Below are positions 1 through 37,257 of a DNA stretch of 62,804 bases, in pieces (the stretch's first letter is position 1; every line of letters begins with the position of its first letter). A program made the translations under genes and the position numbers. The DNA comes from Balamuthia mandrillaris (Eukaryota). The stretch lies in the NCBI GenBank assembly GCA_031835245.2, contig JAVKOQ020000086.1, forward strand, positions 124,001 through 186,804. Reading direction: 5' to 3'. Under the pieces are notes generated by a model. It was not told the origin of the DNA and did no database searches. It saw nothing but the letters and a program-made list of their open reading frames with translations.

Positions 1-306
1 GCAGTGATGGAGGAGGAGGGTGTGCAAGCCACGGGGGAGCAGCTCCAGGAGGCGCTGGTCCAACTGCCTGCAGTACTCCGCGGAGAAGGTGTGGAGGGCT
101 GGGGTTTGTTGGGAGAGGGAGAGGAAGCCCTCGGCCGTGAAGTTGCCACAGTGAGAGAGGACCAGCTTGCGGAGGGTGGAGGGCAGAATGCCCAACACCT
201 TGTTGTTCAGTTTGTGGCAGTACGCGAAGTCTTTTGTTCGTTTGCAATGCGTGTGAGAGAGCAGAAAGAACATAAGAGGAGAGAACAAGGGGGAGGGAGA
301 AGCATT

Positions 307-338
<32 letters not shown>

Positions 339-1119
339 GAGAGAGAGGAGAAAAGAAGGAAGCAGAGAACCAACCCAAGACCTGAATGGAGGAAGAGATG
401 GAGGAGAGGCGGCGCAACAAGGAAGTGGCAGCATTGTTGCTGAGCCTGGCGGGCATGCGGAAGTAATAGAGCTGGGAGAGGGCCAAGGAGCGGAGCTCCC
501 CGTTGCTCAGGCTGATGGCCAAGAGGTCCTTGCTGTCCAGGTAGGAGAATATCACTGCCAGCATCTCCGGTGGAAGTGTCCCCACCCCTTCTTCTTCTTC
601 CTCCTCTTCCTCCTCCACCTCCGCTTCTTCTTCTTCTTCTTTTTGTTCTTGTTCTTCTTGTTGTGCTTCATCGTGGAGAGGTGCCATGGCTTGTTCTTTG
701 TCTTCTGTCCCATGTGGTTCTGCGCCTCCTCCACTTGCTCCTTCTCCTTCTTTTTGGTCTGCTGCTTCTGCCGCTTCTGCTTGGTTTTGTGGTGGTGTTG
801 TTTGTTCTTCCTCTTCTACTCCTTCTACTTCTGCTTCTGCTTGGTCTTGTGGCAGTGGAAGGGGGAGGGCAGCTTGTTCTTTTTGTTGTTGTTGTTGTTC
901 TTTGTGCCGCTTTCTTCTGAGTTTTGTTGCCATCTTTCTTCTTTGTTCCCTTCCGACCTCCCACTCATCCTCCTCTTCATCTTCATCCTCTCCACATTCC
1001 TCCTCCTCCTCCTCCTCCTCCTCCTGCTTCTCCCCTTCCGCTTCCTCCTCCTCCTCCTCTGCTTCCTCCTTCCTCCTCGCCTCTTCTTCTTGGCTTGTTA
1101 TCTCCTCTTTTCTTTCCAT
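1..1119 (-). CDS. F-box/LRR protein, 5' part only (runs off window start); inverted paralog of 10464-12149
   Basis: Reverse complement matches 10464-11555 almost base for base. ATG at 1119 (MERKEEITSQ), acidic N-terminus, F-box (LPPEMLAVIFSYL), GT-AG intron 374..231, then LRRs. Confidence 0.85.
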
Positions 1120-10463: not shown

Positions 10464-12149
10464 ATGGATAGAGAAGAAGAAGAGGAGAGGAAGGAGGAAG
10501 CAGAGGAGGAGGAGGAGGAGGAAGTGGGAGAAGAGAAGGAGGAAGATGAAGATGAAGAGGAGGATGAAGATGAAGAGGAGGATGAGTGGGAGGTCGGAAG
10601 ACAACAAAGAAGAAAGATGGCAGCAAAACTCAGAAGAAAGCGGCACAAAGAACAACAACAAAAAGAACAAGCTGCCCTCCCCCTTCCCTCATCACCACCA
10701 CCACACAACCAAGCAGCAGCAGAAGAAGTAGAAGAGGAAGAACAAACAACACCACCACAAAACCAAGCAGAAGCGGCAGAAGCAGCAGACCAAAAAGAAG
10801 GAGAAGGAGGAGAAGAGAAAACCAAAGCAGCAGAACCACATGGGACAGAAGACAAAGAACAAGCCATGGCACCTCTCCACGATGAAGCACAACAAGAAGA
10901 AGAAGAAGCAGAAGAAGCGGAGGCGGAGGAGGAAGAGGAGGAAGAAGAAGAAGAAGGGGTGGGGACACTTCCACCGGAGATGCTGGCAGTGATATTCTCC
11001 TACCTGGACAGCAAGGACCTCTTGGCCATCAGCCTGAGCAACGGAGAGCTCCGCTCCTTGGCCCTCTCCCAGCTCTATTACTTCCGCATGCCCGCCAGGC
11101 TCAGCAACAATGCTGCCACTTCCTTGTTGCGCCGCCTCTCCTCCGTCTCCTCCTCCATTCAGGTCTTGGGTTGGTTCTCTGCTTCCTTCTTTTCTCCTCT
11201 CTCTCCTCTCTCCTCTCCTCTCTGCTCTCTCAATGCTTCTCCCTCCCCCTCTCCTCTCATGTTCTCTCCTCTCTCTCACATGAGTTTAAACTCACGCATT
11301 GTAAACACAACTAAAACAACAAAAGACTTCACGTACTGCCACAAACTGAACAACAAGGTGTTGGGCATTCTGCCCTCCACCCTCCGCAAGCTGGTCCTCT
11401 CTCACTGCGGCAACTTCACGGCCGAGGGCTTCCTCTCCCTCTCCCAACAAACCCCAGCCCTCCACACCTTCTCCGCGGAGTACTGCAGGCAGTTGGACCA
11501 GCGCCTCCTGGAGCTGCTTCCCCGTGGCTTGCACACCCTCCTCCTCCATCACTGCCATCCCGACTTGTTGCAACGCTTTGGCGAAGTGGTGCACGCTCTT
11601 CCTCCCCATTTGCACGTCTTCTCTCTGGGCGGTGGGTTTAGCAAGCTATCGATGGCAAGGAGGAAGCAGCAAGAATGTGATGCTAAAGATTGTTCAGACA
11701 ATGAAGAAGAAAGAGTGCCAACGGTGAATCGGCTGTGTAAGAGCTTGCCAAGGACGTTGAGAAGCTTTTGCTTATTGGAGTGTGGCGTTGCGAACAGCAT
11801 TATGTGCAATGAAAAGGTAGAAGCGAGCTTCTCCGATCTTCCTTCCTCTCTTCGGCGCTTGTACTTGCTGCACACAATCTTTCCGCGCTGCAAGGCGAGC
11901 ATCGCAGAGCTGTTGAAGAGAGGTCTTCCTACCTCCGTGCAAGAGGTGTTCATTCTGCCGATGCGTCTGCATCCCAACCGTTACAGATGCGTGCCATCTA
12001 CATCGGATACAGACCGAGAATTGGGCGAGTGGATGAGCCTTGTGGAAGGGTTGAATGACTATTTTCGAAGAGGAGGATGCGCCACTCGCGTCATATGCCT
12101 GGACAATTGGTATTCTCATTGGGAACAGCTTACTCCGGATGCTTTGTAA
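10464..12149 (+). CDS. F-box/leucine-rich repeat protein
   Basis: Acidic N-terminus and F-box LPPEMLAVIFSYLDSKDL. Removing the 156-nt intron 11170-11325 restores IQVLDFTYC. Repeated LPxxLxxLxL units follow. Confidence 0.9.
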   Translation: MDREEEEERKEEAEEEEEEEVGEEKEEDEDEEEDEDEEEDEWEVGRQQRRKMAAKLRRKRHKEQQQKEQAALPLPSSPPPHNQAAAEEVEEEEQTTPPQNQAEAAEAADQKEGEGGEEKTKAAEPHGTEDKEQAMAPLHDEAQQEEEEAEEAEAEEEEEEEEEEGVGTLPPEMLAVIFSYLDSKDLLAISLSNGELRSLALSQLYYFRMPARLSNNAATSLLRRLSSVSSSIQVLGWFSASFFSPLSPLSSPLCSLNASPSPSPLMFSPLSHMSLNSRIVNTTKTTKDFTYCHKLNNKVLGILPSTLRKLVLSHCGNFTAEGFLSLSQQTPALHTFSAEYCRQLDQRLLELLPRGLHTLLLHHCHPDLLQRFGEVVHALPPHLHVFSLGGGFSKLSMARRKQQECDAKDCSDNEEERVPTVNRLCKSLPRTLRSFCLLECGVANSIMCNEKVEASFSDLPSSLRRLYLLHTIFPRCKASIAELLKRGLPTSVQEVFILPMRLHPNRYRCVPSTSDTDRELGEWMSLVEGLNDYFRRGGCATRVICLDNWYSHWEQLTPDAL

Positions 12150-12234: not shown

Positions 12235-13246
12235 TTACTCATCAACAGGCCAACCCCCGTTATTCCACGGATTCCTCTTCTGTCCTCGATTCTCTCTTCC
12301 TTGCCTCCACCTCCTACTCCTCGCTCCCGCCGATGCTTCCTCCTTCTTTCTCCTTCCTCCTTTGTTTCTTCCTTGTTCATCCCCCTCTTCTTCTTCTTTC
12401 ACATCCTGTAACACAAGATCGCCAGCCAATTCAAAGGCTGCTCGGAATGGCAACAGCTTCTTCTCCCTCTTATCATCCAATACCGCGAACACAACCCTCT
12501 CAAAGCCATATCCGTTCTCCTCTTCTTTTCTCAAGCAGTCTCGAAAGTATCTCGCCACATCGACGGCTCTGTTTCGAAAGACGCCACACCCAAAGGCGCC
12601 CAACACCAACACTCGGTGCTCGTGGTGCCGCGCCACGCAGAGGATGCGGCGTATGCGCTCCTTCATCACGACCGCTATGGCTCTCTCCACGTCCTCCTGC
12701 CTGCAACGAGGGAGCAGCTGCGAGCGAACGGCGCCGGCGTTGACGGCGGGGCTGCTGATGAAGGAGACCAAGTAAGGCTCATCCAGGAGGAGGCCCTCGT
12801 CGTCCCTAAAGACCGGCACTTGCGGCGAATAGATCATATGATGCGTGTAGAGGCAGTGATGGGAGAACGCCTCCGAAGAAGACGAGGCAGAGGAAGAAGC
12901 ACCACTTGAAGAAGAACGTGAACGACGAGGGCGGGAGGCTCGAAGAGAGGCATGAGCAGAGTACATGGCGCTGGCGATGGGAGAGGTGAGCGTGGCGTAG
13001 AGGCCGCTGCTTCGCGCCAGGGACTCCTCCTGCGCGGAGGAGCCTTTGAGGAAGCCCCCGCCGGGGTTGTGCGCCGAGGCAAAGTTGAGCACGCATACGT
13101 CGCGCTCGCCCTCCTCCACCAGCCGTCTGGCCGCCTCCAGGGTGGTGCAGTTCTCCACCTCTATGATGGGAAGCTTTGGCTTGTTATCCTTCTGCTCCGC
13201 TTCTTTTTGTTCTCCTTCTACTTCTTTTTCTTTTTCGACTTCTTCT

Positions 13247-13278
<32 letters not shown>

Positions 13279-13602
13279 ACTTTCTTCTTCTTTTGCTCTT
13301 TCCTCGTCGATGGTGTTCTTCTCCGCTTCGCCTTCTTCTCTTTCTTCTTCTTCTTCTTCCTTTAGCGTGGTCTCCGCTTCGTCCGTTGTTGGCGCCGAGT
13401 CGTTGGCTCTCTTCCGTCGCTTGGGCTTTTTGGGCTTCCATCGAACGTCAGGCACGTAGAGAATGGTCCCTTCGACGGCCGTCTGCAGGTCCTCCTTGAC
13501 GCTGACCCTCTTTCCGTTCTGGCTGAGGTACTTCCCTTCCTCCAAGATCTGCAGGGTGTGAACAGCGAGTGAGGCGCGATGCGACTTGCCAGCCGAACTC
13601 AT
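12235..13602 (-). CDS. TIGR02452/DUF2263 macrodomain protein (bacterial-type poly(ADP-ribose) glycohydrolase)
   Basis: Intronless ORF with VLNFASAHNPGGGFLKGSSAQEESLARSS (GGG-x6-QEE catalytic loop), IYSPQVPVFR, SPAVNAG and LVLGAFGCGVFRN. Confidence 0.93.
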
Positions 13603-13948
13603 GTTTTATTTTTGTGTGGGGGTTTTGCACAAAAAGTCCAAAAAAAAAAAAGAAGACTTTGGGGTCTTTCTTTCTTTCTAAATTTATTTATAGGATGAAG
13701 GGATGGTAAAAACAACAAGAAAAAAAAAACAACAAGTTGAGAAGAAAGCGGGAAGGCAGCAGAAATGAAGTGGACACCACCACCACCAGTCGTAGTTGCT
13801 CTTTGTTTTTTTTCACTTCCCTTTTGTTTTTGTTTTTGATGAATATTTTCTGTCAGGTCGTCATGGAAGAACATATTTTTGTCGAATTATTCAATTTTTT
13901 GTGGAAAAATTTATGAAATAAATATTTCACTTAATTTTGAAAGATAAG

Positions 13949-28613: not shown

Positions 28614-31600
28614 TTACAACTTAAATACTTCGCTCTTATTAAATAGATAAAACATAGAGACAGTGTGTTCTTTGATGAAGAACATGACTGCAGACGTTAT
28701 CATCGAATGCAGCAGTTTCATCTTCAATCCGCGATGGTACATTGGTAACACCTCTCCAAAGATACTTATCACCATTCCACATCTCATTTGGTGGCGATAC
28801 CGAGGTAATTGCTTTCCTTCTTCATCTTCCTCTTCGTCGCCTTTATCTTTGAGGTTTCTGATCTCTCGAAAGTCAGAAGTTGGACACAAAAGAAGACCGG
28901 CTTGATGTCTAACTCGCAAAACTTGGATGGGGTATGTCAACGTTGTGGCTATCATTGATGACAACGCGCCGAGAGACAGGCTCAGTAACGGGAACGACAT
29001 GTGGAGTTGAGTGGACTGCAGGAATGGGACCCCATTGCTATCCACTGCGAAGAACTCCATGGCGAATCCTTCCAACATTACGTATACGTTGGACTGCACG
29101 ACTGGAAACAAAATCATCACCTAGGACGATGACAGGACATTAGGAAGGGCAGAACAAGGGAGGATTAGAAGAAGCAGAAGGAAACGGGGAATGCATGAAG
29201 AAGATGGGATGAAGAAAGAGAGAAACAAACCAAGTTAGGGAAAAGACCTCGCCAAAAGCCAACAAATCCTTCTTCCTTCCACAACCGTAGCACTTCATCA
29301 GAAAAACCCACACAATTTTCTGATGAGGGTGACGCAACTTGCAACCGAGTGATAATGACCCAAAGCGGTGTTGACACCAACACGTTCGCCACTCCACCCA
29401 TAAAAGCAGGTATCCAGCTCGTCGTTATCGTCCAGTTCTCACCATCTTCATCTGAGGAAGAGGATATAGCCGAAGAAGAGAAAGAAACAGATGAAGAGTA
29501 GGATGACATGGCGTGAAATACCAACCAAAAGATAAAGCTCGACAGACCGGCAGTCAAAATAGACAACATTCTTCCAGGCACGGATGATGAAGAGGAAGAG
29601 GAAGAAGAAGAATGTTCATGCGGCGTTTGTTGACCGCTATTGTTGGTTTGTTGCACGATAATACCAGCTGCTTGTTGGACGTGTTTCAAAAGGAGGCTGT
29701 AAGCAACGGCTTGACAAACCATTGCTCCCAACGCTCCTCCCAATGCTTTCACAAAGACTGAAGGCTCTTTGCCTTCTTCTTCTTCTTTGTTTCCTGCTTC
29801 ATTTTCATCTTCGCGACGATCGTGACGATGAGGAGAAGCATATGAAGGCAGAGATGAAGAAACAATTTTCTTCAACAGAACGCGACGCAAGATGTCCACT
29901 TCACCGACAGTGCTTTTCCACAGAGGGCCTCCTGTTTGTGCTGGCAAGAATCTGGCATACCCATCTCCTCCTTCTGCTAGCCACTCCGTCACAACTATCC
30001 ATATCCCATCCTCATCATTTACTTCCTTCCATACTTCTCCTTCCTCGTCATCTTCTTTTTGCGAATAGTAATGTCGCAACGCTTCGTCCTCTTCATTGCA
30101 TTGCTTCAACACGGCAGCTCTCAGCCAAGTCACTTTTGGTGTGGAGTTGTTGTCGGAGATGCCAAACCGAAGACCGGCTGTTTGCAAGACTGCACCTCCG
30201 TAAGAGGCAGCATCTCCTTCCAGCCCATTCATTACTCGAAGCGAACGTTCTACCATTTGACGGAGTTCTCCTCCTGTTGCCTTCAACATGACCAACTGGT
30301 TGTTCCATGGCAGCATCTCGCGAACGTGTCTGTCATGCAGCGGGCCGCTCCAAAGTTGAGATCGAATTGACCCTGATTCACGAAGAGCGATCACCAGTTC
30401 TGTTTCTTGAAGGAGTGAAGATGACGAGACTTCGCAAAGAGCATACCGGCGCATCGCGTCAGCAATGAACTTGCCCATTACGCATGGTCCCACTCTGCAA
30501 GAAGTTCGACTGTCGCTCAGCAACGTCCTTCCGACTTCTTGTTCTCGATCTTGCAGCTTATTCCTCCTCTTCTTCTTCTCTTTCTGTTTATTCCTACGCT
30601 GCACCATTTTGTCGTCTGCATCGTTATTCTCTGCTGAAACGATAGACTCGTGTCTATTTTGGATGATGGCCAATAGAGGACCCAACTGCAAAGCGTTCAA
30701 TCGAGGTTGCAACCATTCATGAACGCTCTGTTTGGTTGCAGTATGGTGAAGACGCAGCTTCTCCTCCTCCTTCGCTACTTCCACATCCATAATCACAACA
30801 TTTTCCTTCATCGCACGAAGAGCGTTCCGCTTTGACTTTGACGGAAGTGTCTCTACTCCATCTATCTCTTCCTTCCATACAAGACCGACCAACCCAAGGT
30901 ATTGCATGGAGTGGCCCGCATGAATCACTAATACCGAACCGCTTCTCCCTTCTCCTTCTCCTTCTTCAACGTGTAAGGCATGTGCATGGCCACCAAGAAT
31001 CACATTAATCAGTCCTTTCGTGCGAGCTGCAAGGAACGAGTCCAGTTCAACCCCTCCGTGGCCTAGCAGAATTACCGCATCGCAACCCTTTCTACGCAGC
31101 TCCTTTGCTTCCTCTCTTACCAACTCCAAAATGTGGTTCCTTTCGCTCACTCCAGTGAGCATTGCCGACTCTGCATCCGTATACCCCATCACCCCAATCT
31201 TCTTTGCGTGACTTGCTTCGTCATCGATGTTGACGATGACAGAGGGCTTGACTCCATTCGCTTTGACATTGACAGAAAGCACAGGAAAACCAGCACTTTG
31301 CACGAACGCTGGAATATCCGATAAGAACTCCATGTCATGATTTCCAAGGGCCATGGCCTTATAGCCCAATATCCGCATGAGATGAGCCATCCCCAAGGGA
31401 CCGTGTGCAGCGAAGAATTCGGAACCCACAAAAGAATCTCCAGCAGACAGCAGCAACACGGAAGAAGCAGAAGTTGACAATTGGCGATGCATAGTAAGAA
31501 GATCTAGATGAGCGGCGAGCAAAGGAGCCAAAGAGACGTGACCATGAACATCGCTGTTGAAGGCGATGAGGAGGTCTGCAGAGCCAACAAAGGAGGGCAA

Positions 31601-33489
31601 CGGCGATGATAATGTGATAATAGGAAGAGAAGTCGAGGAAGAAGATGAGGGAGAGAGAATCAGATTGCTGTCAGGAACCACGATAACCGTTCTCGGGTTG
31701 TGAACAGCGAGAGAGAGGAAATGAGATTCGTCTGGCGGTTCGTTCGTTTGAGGAGGAAGCAACGCAATAGGAGAAGAGGTTGGGGCGGGTGAAGCTTCAA
31801 AGGAAATACTTCCCAACTCGCACTTGATAGCAACCGCGCTTGTTTGCAAACTTCCGGCGTGGGCGCTTCTTGCTATGTTGCCCGAAGCAGGAGAAGAACA
31901 AGTTGCTATGTTCGAGGCTTTGAGTCGTTCGATGGCCTCATCAGCGAGTTTGGAGAATCGTCCCACAACGTCGTCATTCGCGTCTTTATTGTCTCCCTGC
32001 GCAACTACAACGTGGCATGATGGACCTGCTTCGGCGGAAAGATGTTCCACAAAGTCCATCACCTTTCCTTCCACTTTGGCCAGAGCTAACTGCATCCTCG
32101 TTGAATGCATTCCATCAGGATCAAACAATGACCACAACGCGGTGGAGTTTGCCTCCTTCCCTCGTCCTTGTGGGTGAAGGGGAGGATGTCGAAGCAAAGC
32201 GACAAACCCAGAACCCCTGCAATGCAGAAACTCCTCCGAAGAGTCACAAAGACAGGGAGCAAGGCTGGCCTGCCATCCCGTTCGAAACAAGGAGAGGTCC
32301 CCATGGCAAGTGTCTCTCCCTCCAGACATTGCCAAGGGCAGCTGCATCAGCTGCTGATGAGTGAGGGAAAGGAGATGTTCAGTGTCACGAACGCCGATGG
32401 GGAGGCGGGCTTGCACGTTGTCGCGCAGGTCTAGTATTTCAAATGTTGTCGTCTCGTTGTACTCAACAAATACGTGGGAAAGATACTGTAAGAAGGTGAC
32501 CACGAGAAAGTTCAGTGGCGCAGCTGCTGGCGCAAAAGAAAAGCGGAGGATACTAACCTGAACACTATCATAGCCGGCCTCGCGAGCTTTCACACGCACG
32601 AAAGGATTCACCACGTGAATTTGATGTCGTTCAGCTGGCACAGTGCTGCTCTCGTTTGTAACACACCTCCACCCTCCGCCAAAGTGATTGCATGCCTCAA
32701 CATGAGTGCTGTTGTTTTCTTAAATGAGCTGCGGAGAACGAGAAAGAGCAAGGAAGAAAAGAAGAGAGGCTGAGGATAGAAGTGAGACAAAGAGAGAGTA
32801 AAAAGAGCAGAACTAAACTGAAAAACAATTGTTTTGCCGAGGTTGTAGAAGATGCCTGTGCCAACGTTGAAGAACATCCAAAACCCTTCTGGAAGGTACT
32901 CGCAGCATCTATGAGTAACTTCTACCCACGACCCCGAAGGTATGCCCTGTGGAAACCTTCTCAGAAAAGGCCCTGATTTGTGCTGTTTCCCCCGTTCCAT
33001 ATCTCCAAATGCGTGAATGGTGTAACCATGGTCTTCTGGTTTGAGGCTTCTAAATGACTCCAGATAGACATCCCCGAATCTTACCTCAGCCCGTCGCATA
33101 CGGTCATGTAAATAACGTGCATACACGGTGCGTATGTCTTGTTTCAACCTGAGCGGGAGATGACGATGGTAGAAGAAGGTGAAGTTTCGCGTGTCGATGG
33201 GAAAGCCAAGGAGATGAGGGCCGCCGTAGACGGAGGAAAGGTAGAGGAGCCACTCTGGTTCCTGGAGGAGCTGCTGCTCGTTCCCAAAGAGAGGAAAGGC
33301 CAAGGCGCGGGTGCCGTAGAAGTTTGGTCCCCATTCAACACAGCTGTGTGCAATCGAAGGTGCCAGAGGCGTTTCTGCGCCTATTGCAGCGCAACTCAAG
33401 CAAAGCAGCGCAAAAACTGTGAGTGCGAGGTGGCGTTGCATCCGTATCGATGCGCATCGGTTCTCCTCCTTCCACCCTAGAACTAGCAT
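28614..33489 (-). CDS. Fusion protein: signal peptide + uncharacterised domain + 5'-nucleotidase/apyrase + SLC25 (PMP34-like) carrier
   Basis: Exons 33489-32819, 32708-32558, 32485-29231 and 29120-28614 join in frame through GT-AG introns. Metallophosphoesterase motifs SDVHG, AGD, LGNHD, GH, GGHAH. 5'-NT C-domain (GKFIADAMR, ESGSIRS, LPWNN, LAEGGDGY). Carrier motifs STPLWVIITRLQ, EEGFVGFWRGL, TYPIQVLRVRHQ. The start may be Met 33441. Confidence 0.8.
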
Positions 33490-33639
33490 CCGCCTCACCT
33501 AGTTCCGCCGAAAGGCACACTGTCGACACAAAACATTTTTTCGATTATTGATCGGATTGATTATTTGTCGCCTAAATTTAAAAGTTTGTAATTTTTTCGA
33601 AATATTGTGATATATTTCCGATTTAGTATCGCAATAAAC

Positions 33640-33762
33640 CTCCGGCGTGCCTAATCACGGCTTGTCTTACGACTCGCTATAAGCAACGGTGCCGGCACCA
33701 AAGCAACCTTACCGCCTACCGCCCCCTCACAGAGGAGGAGGAGGTGGTGGTAAGTGCTTGTA
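33640..33762 (-). ncRNA. Putative Fanzor omegaRNA scaffold / element right end, overlapping the ORF stop
   Basis: Long stem CAAGCA-CTTACC..CCTCCTC/TGT/GAGGGGG..GGTAAG-TGCTTTG spans the stop codon. It is followed by GGTGCCGGCACC, TTGCT-TAT-AGCGA and GTC-GTAA-GAC (GNRA loop), then a switch to AT-rich host DNA near 33640. The position matches known TnpB/Fanzor omegaRNAs. Exact ends are unknown. Confidence 0.65.
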
Positions 33763-35455
33763 ACGTAAAAAAGCGGATCAAGATGTTTCGGGAGGCGTTG
33801 GCATCTCGATCGGCCTGGTAGCCACACTCGGGTTGGGGGCACCGAAAGGTCTTGTTTCCCCCCAACTGGTGGTGGACTTGGCCGCACTTGCCGCAGGTCT
33901 TGGAGGTGTATTCCTCATCGCAGAGGCAGACCGTACAGGACGGAAATTGCTTGGCCTTGTTGAGGAGCCTCTGCCTGAAGCTATAGTGGGACCAGGTGAG
34001 CATGGCTCTGGCCGTTCGTGAGCCAATGCGTCGGTGGCCTCGCCGCACCATCTGCTGGCTCCTGAACTCTGGCAGAAGGATGAGGGAGAAGTTCCTGACC
34101 AACCAAGACACGAGCTTCTTGTGGAGGTCATCCACCAGGTTGCGGATCCTCTGGCGAAGCCGAGCAGCGGCCCTTCGGAGACGGCGCCGTTGCCTGTGGT
34201 TGACCTTGGTGCCCTTACTCTGCATGCGGTCCAGGCGGTGGCACAGCTTGCCTATCTCGTTGATGTCCGCTTTGCCCCACTCGGTGACCTCCCCGCAGCC
34301 GTTGTAGGTGGTCATGAATGTGCGCACTCCTGGATCCAAGGCGATGATGCCTGCCTCTCTCCTTCGGTGCTCACGGACTTGGCTCTCGCCCATGAGCTTC
34401 AAAGGCTGAGGCACACAGAGGTAGTAATGGCCCAGTCGAGTGTCTTTCACCAGACGAACGGCATAGAGCACCTCCGACGGAACTTTGTAGTTCTTGTCCC
34501 TCGCTTTGATTCGCGTCTCCCCGAAGAAGAGTTGGCGGATGGACTTGCTGTGGTTCCACTCCCTGGCTTGGATGCTGAGAGACTGGCTCTTGTCCTTCCG
34601 ACCACGGAACTTCATCTTGAATCCAGTCCTGCCCGCCGCCAAGCTGGTTTTCACGCCGTTGAAGAAATCATCGACGGCGTCACTGCGAATGTATCGAGGA
34701 GTTTCCAACACCCACGCAAGGCTCTTGTCCTCTCCGTTGAAATTGCCGTTATTCAGGAATTTCTCCCTGACTTGTTCCTTCATCTCCTTAAGAGGCATTC
34801 CTTTATGTTCACGATGAAACTCCACGGCCTTGTTGTAGGTCCATCGTACTGTGCCGAACCACTTGGCCAGCGTCTTCTTTTGTTCCGAGCGCGGATAAAG
34901 GCGGATCTTCTCCAATCGCCCCACTACCGGTTTCTCCTCTCCATTCTTGCCTTTTTTGGTGAGCTGTACGGCTGGGCGAGACGGAACGAGTCCCTCGATG
35001 AGGCCTAACAAGCCTTTCTGGTTTTTCTCCTCTTCTTCCTTCTCCTTCTCCTTCTCCTCTTCCTCTTCCTCCTTCTTCTCCTTCTCCTTCTTCTCCTCCT
35101 CCTCCTCCTCCTCCAACACCTTTTCTCCGTTAGGAATGTGCTTGCAGGCGGTGAACCATCCTGAACCACAGGCAAAGGGTTCTTCCAAGCACAAGGCTTC
35201 TGGGCGTATTAATCTTCTCCCGATTTCGCTGGAAAACTGGTTCCAAAAGGGCTGGGCGGGTGCAGCCTGCGGCCTTCCACGCTTCTGTGCCCTTGCCTGA
35301 GGTGCCGCTGGGGCGTTTTCCGCTCTTCTTTTCCGAGTAGCAGTGGGAGTAGAAGAAGTAGTGGTGCGACCCCCTTCCTTGTGGACCCGACCGAAGTGAA
35401 CGGCCAACCCGTGAGAGGTAGCAAACTTTTTTCGGCACTGTGGGCAACTTGCCAT
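33716..35455 (-). CDS. Fanzor2 (IS607/TnpB-derived RNA-guided endonuclease) with N-terminal C2H2 zinc finger, 579 aa
   Basis: OrfB-type HTH (KIRLYP..QKKTLAKWFGTVRWTYN), MKFRGRK, RuvC-I IIALDPGVRTF (D374), Pro at the canonical RuvC-II position (ILLPEF), alternative Glu in DEEYTSKTCGKCG (E514), Zn ribbon FRCPQPECG, RuvC-III DRDANASRNI (D551). N-terminal CPQC-x12-H-x4-H. Intronless with no stops. Confidence 0.95.
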   Translation of the reverse strand: MASCPQCRKKFATSHGLAVHFGRVHKEGGRTTTSSTPTATRKRRAENAPAAPQARAQKRGRPQAAPAQPFWNQFSSEIGRRLIRPEALCLEEPFACGSGWFTACKHIPNGEKVLEEEEEEEKKEKEKKEEEEEEKEKEKEEEEKNQKGLLGLIEGLVPSRPAVQLTKKGKNGEEKPVVGRLEKIRLYPRSEQKKTLAKWFGTVRWTYNKAVEFHREHKGMPLKEMKEQVREKFLNNGNFNGEDKSLAWVLETPRYIRSDAVDDFFNGVKTSLAAGRTGFKMKFRGRKDKSQSLSIQAREWNHSKSIRQLFFGETRIKARDKNYKVPSEVLYAVRLVKDTRLGHYYLCVPQPLKLMGESQVREHRRREAGIIALDPGVRTFMTTYNGCGEVTEWGKADINEIGKLCHRLDRMQSKGTKVNHRQRRRLRRAAARLRQRIRNLVDDLHKKLVSWLVRNFSLILLPEFRSQQMVRRGHRRIGSRTARAMLTWSHYSFRQRLLNKAKQFPSCTVCLCDEEYTSKTCGKCGQVHHQLGGNKTFRCPQPECGYQADRDANASRNILIRFFTLQALTTTSSSSVRGR

Positions 35456-36067
35456 TCAGGCCAGCTTCCAGCAGCGTTGTGGAAGAGGCGCACAGAGGTT
35501 CGTGATGCTGTTCTTTTTTAAACAAAAGAAATCATTAGTGAGTGGTTGGTAACAAATTTTTTTTCCATCATCAAAAAATGTAGTGAGCGAGCAGAGAAAA
35601 AAGAACGCTACCTTTTCAATCGGAGCGGTGCCCCTGCCTGCTGCTGAACCGCTTCGGTTTCCACCTGTGCCTCCTTCCGCCGCTGGTTTCCTCCTTGTGT
35701 AGTAGAAGCGTAGCAATGAGAAATACGGTGGTGCGTGGAGCTTCGTGGATGTGTGTGTCTGTGTGTTTACTTTTGAAAAGAAAGAAACGACAAGAAAAGA
35801 AGAGAAGAAAAGAAAACGAGTAGCAGAAAAGTGTCAAGGCGAATGACGAGTACCAAAAGTTTATTGGCGGCAGCAGCATGAGCATCCATTCCATTCACCC
35901 CACCCCACACCCCAACCCACCACTTTGCCTTCGAAGACGTGGGAGAAGGAAGGGTTGTTTTGGCGGGAAAAATGCTCATTGGCCCAAAAGACGAATGTCG
36001 GGATTTCTTTTTTGTTGTCCTTAGATCTTATGATCTTTGCGTCGCCTTACAAGCAACACTGGTGTAA

Positions 36068-36272
36068 CGCAGCGCTTCTCTTCTTCTGGACACAAAACAT
36101 GGGGAAGGGAGAAGGCAGAGCAAGCGAAGGGACTACCACACCTTTATCTACAAGGTGCTTGCACAAGCAAGTGCACCCCAACAAGAGCATCAGCAATCAA
36201 GCTATGCTCATCACGGACTCCTTCATTAGGGGCATTGCCTATCCGCTCTTGCAGGAGGCCACCATGCTGTTG
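36068..36272 (+). pseudogene. Frameshifted histone H2B-like fragment
   Basis: RRQSKRRDYHTFIYKVL + 4 extra nt (GCAC, 36161-36164) + KQVHPNKSISNQAMLITDSFIRGIAYPLLQEATML. This aligns with the H2B consensus YIYKVLKQVHP..ISSKAM.IMNSF..I..EA. No in-frame start and no C-terminal helices. Confidence 0.75.
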
Positions 36273-36330
36273 CCTGTTGTTTTTCTTTCGTTCTCGTGCT
36301 TCGTTCCTCTTCTTCATCATCTGTGTTGCA

Positions 36331-37257
36331 CTACCAACCACGAGGCAAAAACTGCTCTAACTCCTTCATGACCCGCTGAATGCCAACCACTAAAGGGGAC
36401 TCCTGGTATGTCCTGCTCCTCCACTGTTGTTGCTGTTGTTGCAGAGCTGCCTTCTTCCTCTTGATCCGGTGCAAGGAGCCATGCTTGTGGGCCTGCCACT
36501 TGAGGAAGAAAGGCATCCAGCGGGCCATCATGCACAGCAGGCAACCCCAAAGGAAACACCTCCTGGCCGCACTCCACTCCTGCCGCTTCCTCAACCTCTG
36601 CCGGTGGTCATAGTAGACCGAGTAGGTGCAGTAGCGCAGGAGGGCTCCCACAAAACACAAGAGGAAGCCCGCACGCAGGCCATAGCGCAGGGCACCCACC
36701 ACAGGGAGGAGGTAGCCCAGGTAGAGGCCCAGCAGGTGGCGTTTGGTGGCAAACTCCACGTCCACCACCGTGCTGCCCTCGTAGTGCACCAACATCACCG
36801 CGTTGCCTTCACTGTTTGTGTTGGCAGGCAAAACAAAAAAAAAGAGAGTGAATACACAAGATTAAGAAAAAGGGTGGGAGAAAGAGTAGCATGCATACAA
36901 GATTTGTTTGTGGAGGTCCCATGCTTGGAGGAGTTCTTTGTGGCGGAGACGAAGGCCCACGTTGCGCAGGTGGAAGAAAAGGGCTTTTTTGGATTGCCAA
37001 CGGTCCGGGCGGAGGGACTGCTGCTCCACGTACTGAGGGGAGAGGTAGCCCTTCCACTCGCCATGGCAGAGCTCCTGCCGGATGCGGCGCTTCCAGTGGA
37101 CCTCGTCGTTGCCGAGGGCGTGGAACCGTTTGTTGGCGAGGGTGAGGTTCAAGGCGTCGTTCTCGTTGAGGAGGACAAACACGTTGAACCATACCTCATC
37201 CGGGAGGTCGTACAGGATCGACGGCTTCTCCTCCTTCCATCTCTTTCCTCGAAACAT
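36331..37257 (-). CDS. F-box protein with two predicted C-terminal TM segments, 2 exons
   Basis: F-box LYDLPDEVWFNVFVLL..LTLANKRFHALGNDEVHW. Intron 36898-36812 joins in frame (QIF|EGNAV). Hydrophobic segments in exon 2. Confidence 0.75.

What the first reader, a model, noticed from the sequence alone, without database searches (positions are those of the whole stretch)
33716..35455. Intact stand-alone Fanzor2 RNA-guided nuclease in an amoebal gene-dense region
Seen: an uninterrupted 579-aa ORF with OrfB-type HTH, RuvC D374/E514/D551 and a Zn ribbon. The canonical RuvC-II Glu is replaced by Pro and there is an alternative Glu in EEYTS. No serine recombinase or other transposase is nearby. Established: this rearranged RuvC marks Fanzor2/IS607-associated TnpB nucleases that use a 3'-encoded omegaRNA. 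Inference: a probably active, compact eukaryotic RNA-guided endonuclease, either non-autonomous or domesticated.
Basis: partly seen in the sequence, partly recalled or inferred. Interest (0 to 1): 0.9.

Follow-up and report, generated by a model that had tools for sequence, protein, structure and literature searches.

The report
Amoebal transposon carrying a Fanzor2 nuclease
This gene is one copy of a 2.4-kb repeated, transcribed DNA element of an amoeba. The element lacks its own transposase and encodes a Fanzor2 protein that likely cuts DNA under RNA guidance to help the element persist, so it is a new member of a known family rather than a domesticated host gene.

Summary
The 579-aa ORF and its rearranged RuvC site are real (D374 in DPG, P462, E514, D551, zinc ribbon). 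Its best solved match is mimivirus Fanzor2.

It is not a lone or domesticated gene. It fills a ~2.41-kb element (33638 to ~36049). At least 15 related gene models lie on different contigs labelled Balamuthia mandrillaris, read depth jumps at both ends, and one other DNA run has an empty site here. No transposase lies in the element or the window, although 125 of 160 related loci carry an IS607 TnpA.

The family is transcribed. A structured 3' end fits an omegaRNA (predicted only). This copy departs from its sisters at two conserved residues and its own transcription is not shown, so 'probably active' is unproven.

Unusual features: an N-terminal C2H2 zinc finger, absent from 117 homologous proteins and 236 locus ORFs from elsewhere; ends without terminal repeats; and a dominant spliced RNA antisense to the gene.

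Amoebal Fanzor2 elements are known (Acanthamoeba), and this scan earlier noted IS607/Fanzor2 relics on other DNA. I found no Balamuthia Fanzor in print. Verdict: new member of a known kind.

The parts
33638..36049 (-). Non-autonomous transposable element, ~2.41 kb. Right end at 33638-33639, left end at 36046-36049.
   Evidence: Depth steps and loose ends at 33636/33638 and 36046-36050 in DNA-like and RNA runs; empty-site joint 33615->36050 in run X13
33716..35455 (-). Fanzor2 ORF, 579 aa
35381..35446 (-). N-terminal C2H2 zinc finger, aa 4-25 (motif level)
   Evidence: Canonical C-x2-C-x3-F-x5-L-x2-H-x4-H spacing; the only such match in 125,604 six-frame codons of the window. Pfam zf-C2H2 E=2e-4 to 9e-4, below cut-off. 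PDB matches are mostly C2H2 fingers. A single-sequence fold did not give the finger.
35273..35335 (-). Basic clusters RKRR (41-44) and KRGR (58-61), candidate nuclear localisation signal
   Evidence: Seen in the sequence; function inferred from the N-terminal NLS described for ApmFz2
35153..35251 (-). Fanzor2-type N-terminal block (PFW...WF, aa 69-101), likely the RuvC-R part
   Evidence: Conserved in about 45 of ~50 full-length homologues; model aligns to 9b0l from residue 67 (chain residue 53)
35021..35116 (-). Glu/Lys low-complexity repeat of variable length among copies
34334..34336 (-). RuvC-I D374 (DPG)
34070..34072 (-). P462 at the canonical RuvC-II Glu position
33914..33916 (-). Alternative RuvC-II E514
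33824..33895 (-). C4 zinc ribbon, aa 521-544
33803..33805 (-). RuvC-III D551
33638..33800 (-). Predicted omegaRNA scaffold: long stem over the stop codon, short hairpins, candidate pseudoknot with the last 15 nt
   Evidence: Fold z=-3.28, 0 of 200 shuffles as stable; lowest of 43 windows; layout compared with relatives. No small-RNA data.
33618..33637 (-). Predicted guide segment: host flank just beyond the right end
   Evidence: Inferred from known Fanzors; this stretch is kept in the empty allele
35508..35611 (-). Sense GT..AG intron in the 5' leader
   Evidence: Joint 35507->35612 in run X5 only, depth 85
35498..35583 (+). Antisense GT..AG intron, 86 nt
   Evidence: Joint in X5, X12, X16, X21 (8 reads), X22 (2 reads); 0 contigs in DNA-like X1, X2, X13
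36008..36049 (-). Left-terminal ~40-bp segment with a short hairpin; also occurs in other sequence contexts
   Evidence: Depth peak and loose ends at 36008-36014 with varied inner flanks; hairpin

Best explanation
The ORF is a Fanzor2 gene inside a 2.4-kb multicopy, transcribed element that has no transposase of its own, likely descends from an IS607-type transposon that lost TnpA, and is likely moved by an enzyme supplied in trans. Shown: protein family, element limits, many copies, one empty allele, family-level transcription. Inferred from characterised Fanzors: the structured 3' end plus about 15-20 nt of host flank forms the omegaRNA; the complex recognises a short motif like the left junction (predicted A/G-rich, ending in GG) next to the guide-matching sequence; it cuts sites from which the element has excised, and repair from a filled homologue restores the element. 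The lineage has added a C2H2 finger and spliced leader introns. This particular copy is probably drifting neutrally since insertion and may or may not still cut.
For: Best sequence match in PDB is ApmFz2 9b0l, E=7e-26, against 2e-11 for the next. Best fold match is also 9b0l: Foldseek E=2.4e-20; VIA Z 22.1, rmsd 4.2, 419 aligned. In a 119-sequence tree it nests (SH-like 0.97) in a 14-member clade with TnpA-linked loci L001 and L015, inside the DPG/alternative-Glu group; 11 of 13 prokaryotic-genome representatives branch outside the 69-member clade that holds it. 15 related gene models lie on contigs of 15 different lengths, all named Balamuthia mandrillaris (12 at 72-97% identity; 3). Depth rises sharply over 33640-36050 in 4 of 4 runs, loose ends cluster at both limits, and X13 joins the flanks without the element. 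Two raw RNA runs of one study lay 255 and 278 reads, nearly all on the element, and none on 33100-33543. The 3' end folds at z=-3.3. Among the differences listed between this copy and the family, 11 of 31 are synonymous, not distinguishable from neutral (p 0.08-0.24; truncated list).
Against: The ends do not show the relatives' terminal motif at the very end: 10-20 conserved bases follow the best candidates. The single empty allele does not read as a clean IS607 target: it has 6 bases that are the reverse complement (5 of 6) of the 6 predicted. No omegaRNA ends were seen (table 6 empty), and Rfam gives nothing. 0 of 12 sister gene models keep the full catalytic pattern, though short-read runs mostly keep the frame at the homopolymer concerned. 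Cleavage is untested.
Confidence: 0.68

Rival explanations
1. An IS607-derived Fanzor2 cassette was captured by a different, non-IS607 transposon of the amoeba (Helitron2/Helentron-like or tyrosine-recombinase type), which supplied new ends and a spliced leader: a further independent 'Fanzor2*' capture.
For: Conserved sequence runs 10-20 nt past the candidate ancestral end motif. The left 40 bp carry a hairpin and recur in other contexts. The 590-bp leader has introns and no TnpA trace. Fanzor2 in non-IS607 transposons, Helitrons included, is reported (PMC10711439 section 22; PMC10530073 section 7).
Against: No significant inverted or direct similarity between the ends (p 0.17-0.60). The Helitron2 end layout (PMC3627910 section 9) is not matched. 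Junctions fit a shared GG core with a fixed base after the right end, as described for IS607. No fused partner among longer proteins (weak).
Confidence: 0.2
2. The whole family is a decaying relic: the gene rides along passively, is held down by antisense RNA, and no copy yields a working nuclease.
For: Many internal deletions among copies; broken sister gene models; antisense-spliced form about 11 times deeper than the sense-spliced form in X5 (936 against 85); low read counts; neutral-looking differences.
Against: All catalytic and zinc residues are intact here. Majority letters in RNA runs keep the conserved Arg and Ala. Insertion is polymorphic, so movement is recent on a strain scale.
Confidence: 0.09
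3. A domesticated single-copy host nuclease.
For: Intact ORF in a gene-dense region, no transposase in cis, added C2H2 finger.
Against: At least 15 dispersed related gene models, sharp element ends, and an empty allele in X13.
Confidence: 0.03

Closest known systems
ApmFz2 (Acanthamoeba polyphaga mimivirus Fanzor2, PDB 9b0l)
   Same: DPG RuvC-I, Pro at the canonical Glu, alternative Glu, zinc ribbon, N-terminal extension; best sequence and fold match.
   Different: 21% identity in the structural alignment; cellular host; extra C2H2 finger and Glu/Lys repeat; TAM and guide not measured here.
ACa-1/ACa-2 IS607-like Fanzor2 elements of Acanthamoeba castellanii (PMC3627910)
   Same: Amoebozoan Fanzor2 in an element without terminal inverted repeats or target-site duplication.
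   Different: Those carry a serine recombinase; this element has none.
NlovFz2 and MmeFz2 (PMC10432273); 'Fanzor2*' (PMC10711439)
   Same: Eukaryotic Fanzor2 with no transposase at the locus.
   Different: The mollusc and algal Fanzor2* elements have terminal inverted repeats and target-site duplications; none found here.
Environmental IS607-Fanzor2 loci (L001, L002, L012, L015) and cyanobacterial pro-Fanzors
   Same: 42-49% (environmental) and 33-38% (cyanobacterial) identity in the core; stem plus short hairpin after RuvC-III.
   Different: They carry TnpA upstream and end in a conserved motif paired to the hairpin loop; this element lacks TnpA and its end has diverged.

Membership tests
Fanzor / pro-Fanzor (PMC10711439) | RuvC-I DPG motif | tested here: met
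   D374-P375-G376
Fanzor / pro-Fanzor (PMC10711439) | Alternative Glu six residues before the zinc finger; canonical Glu replaced by Pro/Gly | tested here: met
   E514-x6-C521; P462
Fanzor / TnpB (PMC3627910) | C4 zinc finger followed by RD | tested here: met
   C521/524/539/544, R550-D551. The second knuckle has 4 residues between the cysteines, so it misses the paper's strict CxxC pattern; both Cys are invariant in the alignment.
Fanzor2 | HTH_OrfB domain and compact TnpB-like architecture with N-terminal extension | tested here: met
   PF12323 E=7e-10; top fold match 9b0l; SpuFz (Fanzor1) at Foldseek rank 37
Fanzor2 | Phylogenetic placement with IS607-linked Fanzor2/pro-Fanzors | tested here: met
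   FastTree, rooted on 6 plasmid TnpBs. No Fanzor1 or named reference Fanzor2 was in the tree, so separation from Fanzor1 rests on architecture and fold.
Fanzor2 | Encoded in a eukaryotic genome | tested here: met
   Sister proteins named Balamuthia mandrillaris; intron-bearing neighbours with F-box, kinase and carrier domains
Fanzor2 | 3' omegaRNA with pseudoknot, extending past the right end | tested here: inconclusive
   Structured (z=-3.3); at least two candidate 5-6-bp pseudoknots; no RNA ends seen
Fanzor2 | RNA-guided, TAM-dependent dsDNA cleavage | not testable with these tools
   Needs a bench assay
Autonomous IS607EU element | TnpA serine recombinase in cis | tested here: not met
   No profile hit in the window; control 125 of 160 loci
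IS607-type element (non-autonomous) | No terminal inverted repeats or target duplication; matching dinucleotide core at both junctions; scarless empty site | tested here: inconclusive
   No terminal repeats; a GG core fits both junctions; the one empty allele has the predicted length but inverted letters
Fanzor2* in cut-and-paste transposons | Terminal inverted repeats and target-site duplication | tested here: not met
   Best inverted alignment p=0.35-0.60; flanks are not a duplication
Helitron2 | Asymmetric terminal repeats, hairpins at both ends, RepHel partner | tested here: inconclusive
   Left hairpin only; layout not matched; partner could not be searched without the genome

The most novel reading that the evidence does not exclude
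A Fanzor2 lineage that has left IS607 for an unidentified amoebal transposon without terminal repeats, gained a C2H2 finger and spliced leader, and is held in check by its own spliced antisense RNA. It would be a native, polymorphic eukaryotic system in which Fanzor homing and its regulation could be followed across strains.
Probability: 0.18. Interest if true: 0.65.

Novelty: new member of a known kind. Interest (0 to 1): 0.38.

Why it matters
What Fanzors do in their native eukaryotic hosts is still argued by analogy to bacterial TnpB (PMC10432273 discussion passage; PMC13565253 section 20). A multicopy, strain-polymorphic, transcribed family with public DNA and RNA data lets TAM, guides, empty sites and repair scars be read computationally. 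It adds an amoebozoan Fanzor2 not found in three published catalogues, with an apparently lineage-specific C2H2 finger. It does not change the concept of Fanzors.

Tried and rejected
(1) No whole genome was held, so copies could not be aligned. Copy evidence comes from protein records and read laying; summed depth is not a copy number.
(2) TnpA remnant in the leader or in the frame overlapping the N-terminus: a KKVCY-like stretch looked suggestive, but the profile gave no hit and the best tblastn hits over the leader were E=0.024-0.2 with 79 queries. Rejected.
(3) Terminal inverted or direct repeats: not above shuffles.
(4) Other copies or ends in the window: none (two 3-mismatch hits lie in the duplicated F-box genes). 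Left-end pattern in viral contigs: 0.
(5) Rfam: 4 chance-level hits.
(6) Longer fused forms: none of 5374 candidates, weak evidence.
(7) Single-sequence fold of the 34-aa finger gave a helix at pLDDT 65; uninformative. In the full model, residues 1-60 were below pLDDT 50.
(8) A protein from the antisense spliced RNA: no ATG-started ORF crosses the joint; the frame across it is 64 codons stop to stop.
(9) Read orientation could not fix the strand of transcripts; the library may be unstranded. The antisense call rests on the GT..AG motif.
(10) No holder run was on record as RNA; X5, X12 and X16 are judged RNA-like from uneven flank cover only.
(11) The bacterial promoter scan was at chance level and does not apply to a eukaryote.
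(12) A second genomic target for the predicted guide: one 2-mismatch 14-mer in the window, not pursued.
(13) The protein atlas gave no result.
(14) Not-in-print searches: Balamuthia + Fanzor, 0 papers. Supplements of PMC10530073, PMC10711439 and PMC10432273 hold no 'Balamuthia' (one scanned PDF not searchable; tables keyed by accession alone could hide it; Repbase not searched). The search for Fanzor with antisense/C2H2 listed nothing relevant in its top 20 of 714.

Full report
Observation. The minus-strand ORF 35455-33716 is 579 aa without a break. It has D374 in a DPG motif, P462 at the canonical RuvC-II position, E514 six residues before the first zinc cysteine, C521/524/539/544 and D551. 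All are invariant in 113 aligned sequences. Pfam and NCBIfam call it TnpB-like. DPG plus the alternative Glu is the published Fanzor fingerprint, found in under 1% of TnpB homologues (PMC10711439, section 22 part 1 read).

Family. The best solved match by sequence and by fold is mimivirus Fanzor2, 9b0l (model mean pLDDT 81). The model aligns with it from residue 67, which includes the N-terminal part described as Fanzor2-specific (PMC11832414, parts 1-2 of 5 read). A FastTree tree of 119 sequences (224 extracted, 105 near-duplicates dropped; loci without an intact frame left out) places it with support 0.97 in a 14-member clade that includes TnpA-linked loci L001 and L015. 11 of 13 prokaryotic-genome representatives lie outside the larger clade that holds it. 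No Fanzor1 was in the tree.

It is a mobile element. The closest proteins are named Balamuthia mandrillaris: 12 records at 72-97% identity and 3 more fragments, on contigs of 15 different lengths. Laying four runs shows depth rising sharply between about 33640 and 36050; in X13 it goes from 14-27 on the left flank to mostly 100-540 (summed depth is not a copy number). Loose ends gather at 33636/33638 and 36046-36050. One X13 contig joins the two flanks without the element. This removes domestication as a serious option. A TnpA profile built from 79 relatives finds TnpA in 125 of 160 related loci and nothing in the window, so the element is non-autonomous.

Ends. There are no significant inverted or direct terminal repeats and no target duplication. 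The left junction reads TAA then GGCG, with conservation fading over the TAA. The right end finishes GGAGG then T in all three junctions visible. That fits a GG-core crossover with a fixed base after the right end, as described for IS607, and predicts a short TAM ending in GG (inference). Against this, the one empty allele has the predicted 6-base length but in reverse complement. The relatives' terminal motif, which pairs with a hairpin loop in loci such as L002, L010, L021 and L048, has no clear counterpart at the very end here. The left 40 bp also occur in other contexts.

omegaRNA. The last 163 nt fold at z=-3.28, the lowest region of 43 windows scanned, though two other regions reach -2.6 to -2.8. 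A long stem covers the stop codon, followed by short hairpins, with at least two possible 5-6-bp pseudoknots to the last 15 nt. This resembles the relatives' layout but is a prediction; no RNA ends were detected.

Expression. Two raw RNA runs of one study gave 255 and 278 laid reads out of 12.9 million records each, across the whole element, in both mate orientations, and none on 33100-33543. The family is transcribed. At positions private to this copy, reads carry the sisters' letters: all reads at 33793, 34377 and 36042, and 36 of 38 at 33982. This copy's own transcription is therefore not shown; the strain may lack it. A sense leader intron (35508-35611) appears in X5 only. A plus-strand GT..AG intron (35498-35583) appears in 5 of 5 RNA or RNA-like runs and 0 of 3 DNA-like runs, about 11 times deeper than the sense intron in X5. 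It implies an antisense transcript, with no evident protein. A role in silencing is a guess.

State of this copy. It differs from its sisters at two conserved positions: S492 (Arg in 96 of 112 homologues) and S555 (Ala in 109 of 112). Of 31 listed differences, 11 are synonymous, consistent with neutral drift (truncated list). None of 12 sister gene models keeps the full catalytic pattern. Several break near homopolymer runs where short-read runs mostly keep this copy's frame, so assembly error may contribute. Activity is plausible for the family and open for this copy.

C2H2 finger. Residues 4-25 have full canonical spacing, the only such match in the window's six frames, with sub-threshold Pfam hits and C2H2 matches in PDB. 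It is kept in sister copies. It is absent from 117 non-host homologues, 36 of them 540 aa or longer, and from 236 locus ORFs; many of these lack their N-terminus. Among 51 hits to the first 110 residues in 1.84 billion representatives, the only ones tied to this Fanzor were host copies. Its fold and role are untested (uninformative).

Mechanism. Shown: family, element, copies, polymorphism, transcription. Inferred from characterised systems (PMC10530073 passages and section 7; PMC10432273 passages; PMC13565253 passages and section 20): the 3' RNA plus flank guides the protein to cut sites the element has left, and repair from a filled homologue restores it. Confidence 0.68 for this whole picture with IS607-type mobilisation, 0.2 for capture by another transposon, 0.09 for a dead family, 0.03 for domestication.

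Novelty. IS607-like Fanzor2 elements in Acanthamoeba were described in 2013 (PMC3627910, passages and section 9), and Fanzor2 loci without a transposase in 2023. No paper joined Balamuthia and Fanzor, and three catalogues' supplements do not name it. A Balamuthia genome preprint notes many unannotated transposable elements and does not mention Fanzor (10.1101/2025.02.25.640156, passages). Two earlier notes of this scan describe IS607/Fanzor2 relics in other genomes (unchecked). Verdict: a real, new member of a known kind with a few odd features; interest 0.38.

Noticed in passing
window 35498-35583 (+): GT..AG intron antisense to the Fanzor gene, overlapping the sense leader intron. It is the dominant form in RNA-like runs of several studies and has 0 contigs in three DNA-like runs. 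No protein is evident; a genomic deletion in an expressed subfamily is not fully excluded.
   Followed up: partly
window 33637/36050 junction, run X13: The empty allele holds 6 bases that are the reverse complement (5 of 6) of the 6 predicted for a GG-core empty site. One contig; unexplained.
   Followed up: partly
window 36008-36049: The left-terminal ~40 bp is deeper than the adjoining leader in most runs and appears with varied inner flanks: possibly mini-elements or another family sharing this end. One read group and one contig show it with an inverted part.
   Followed up: partly
window 36020-36800: Contigs of RNA-like runs X5 and X12 run from the upstream F-box gene region into the element's left end, so this copy may sit in or near that gene's 3' region.
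   Followed up: no
window 1-1090 and 10472-11555: Inverted duplicate of an F-box gene, 89% identical.
   Followed up: no
window 12238-13605 (-): Microbial-type PARG catalytic domain, E=8e-44.
   Followed up: no
window 29165-32347 (-): 5'-nucleotidase/metallophosphoesterase ORF ending in a mitochondrial-carrier domain.
   Followed up: no
L161, L162: Two ~2-kb contigs in bacterial MAGs fall among the eukaryote-like Fanzor2 sequences and are probably misbinned.
   Followed up: no
NCBI models P0125, P0127, P0140: Fragments of this element are annotated as BRCT, TFIID subunit or chromatin-assembly proteins; these look like misnames.
   Followed up: yes
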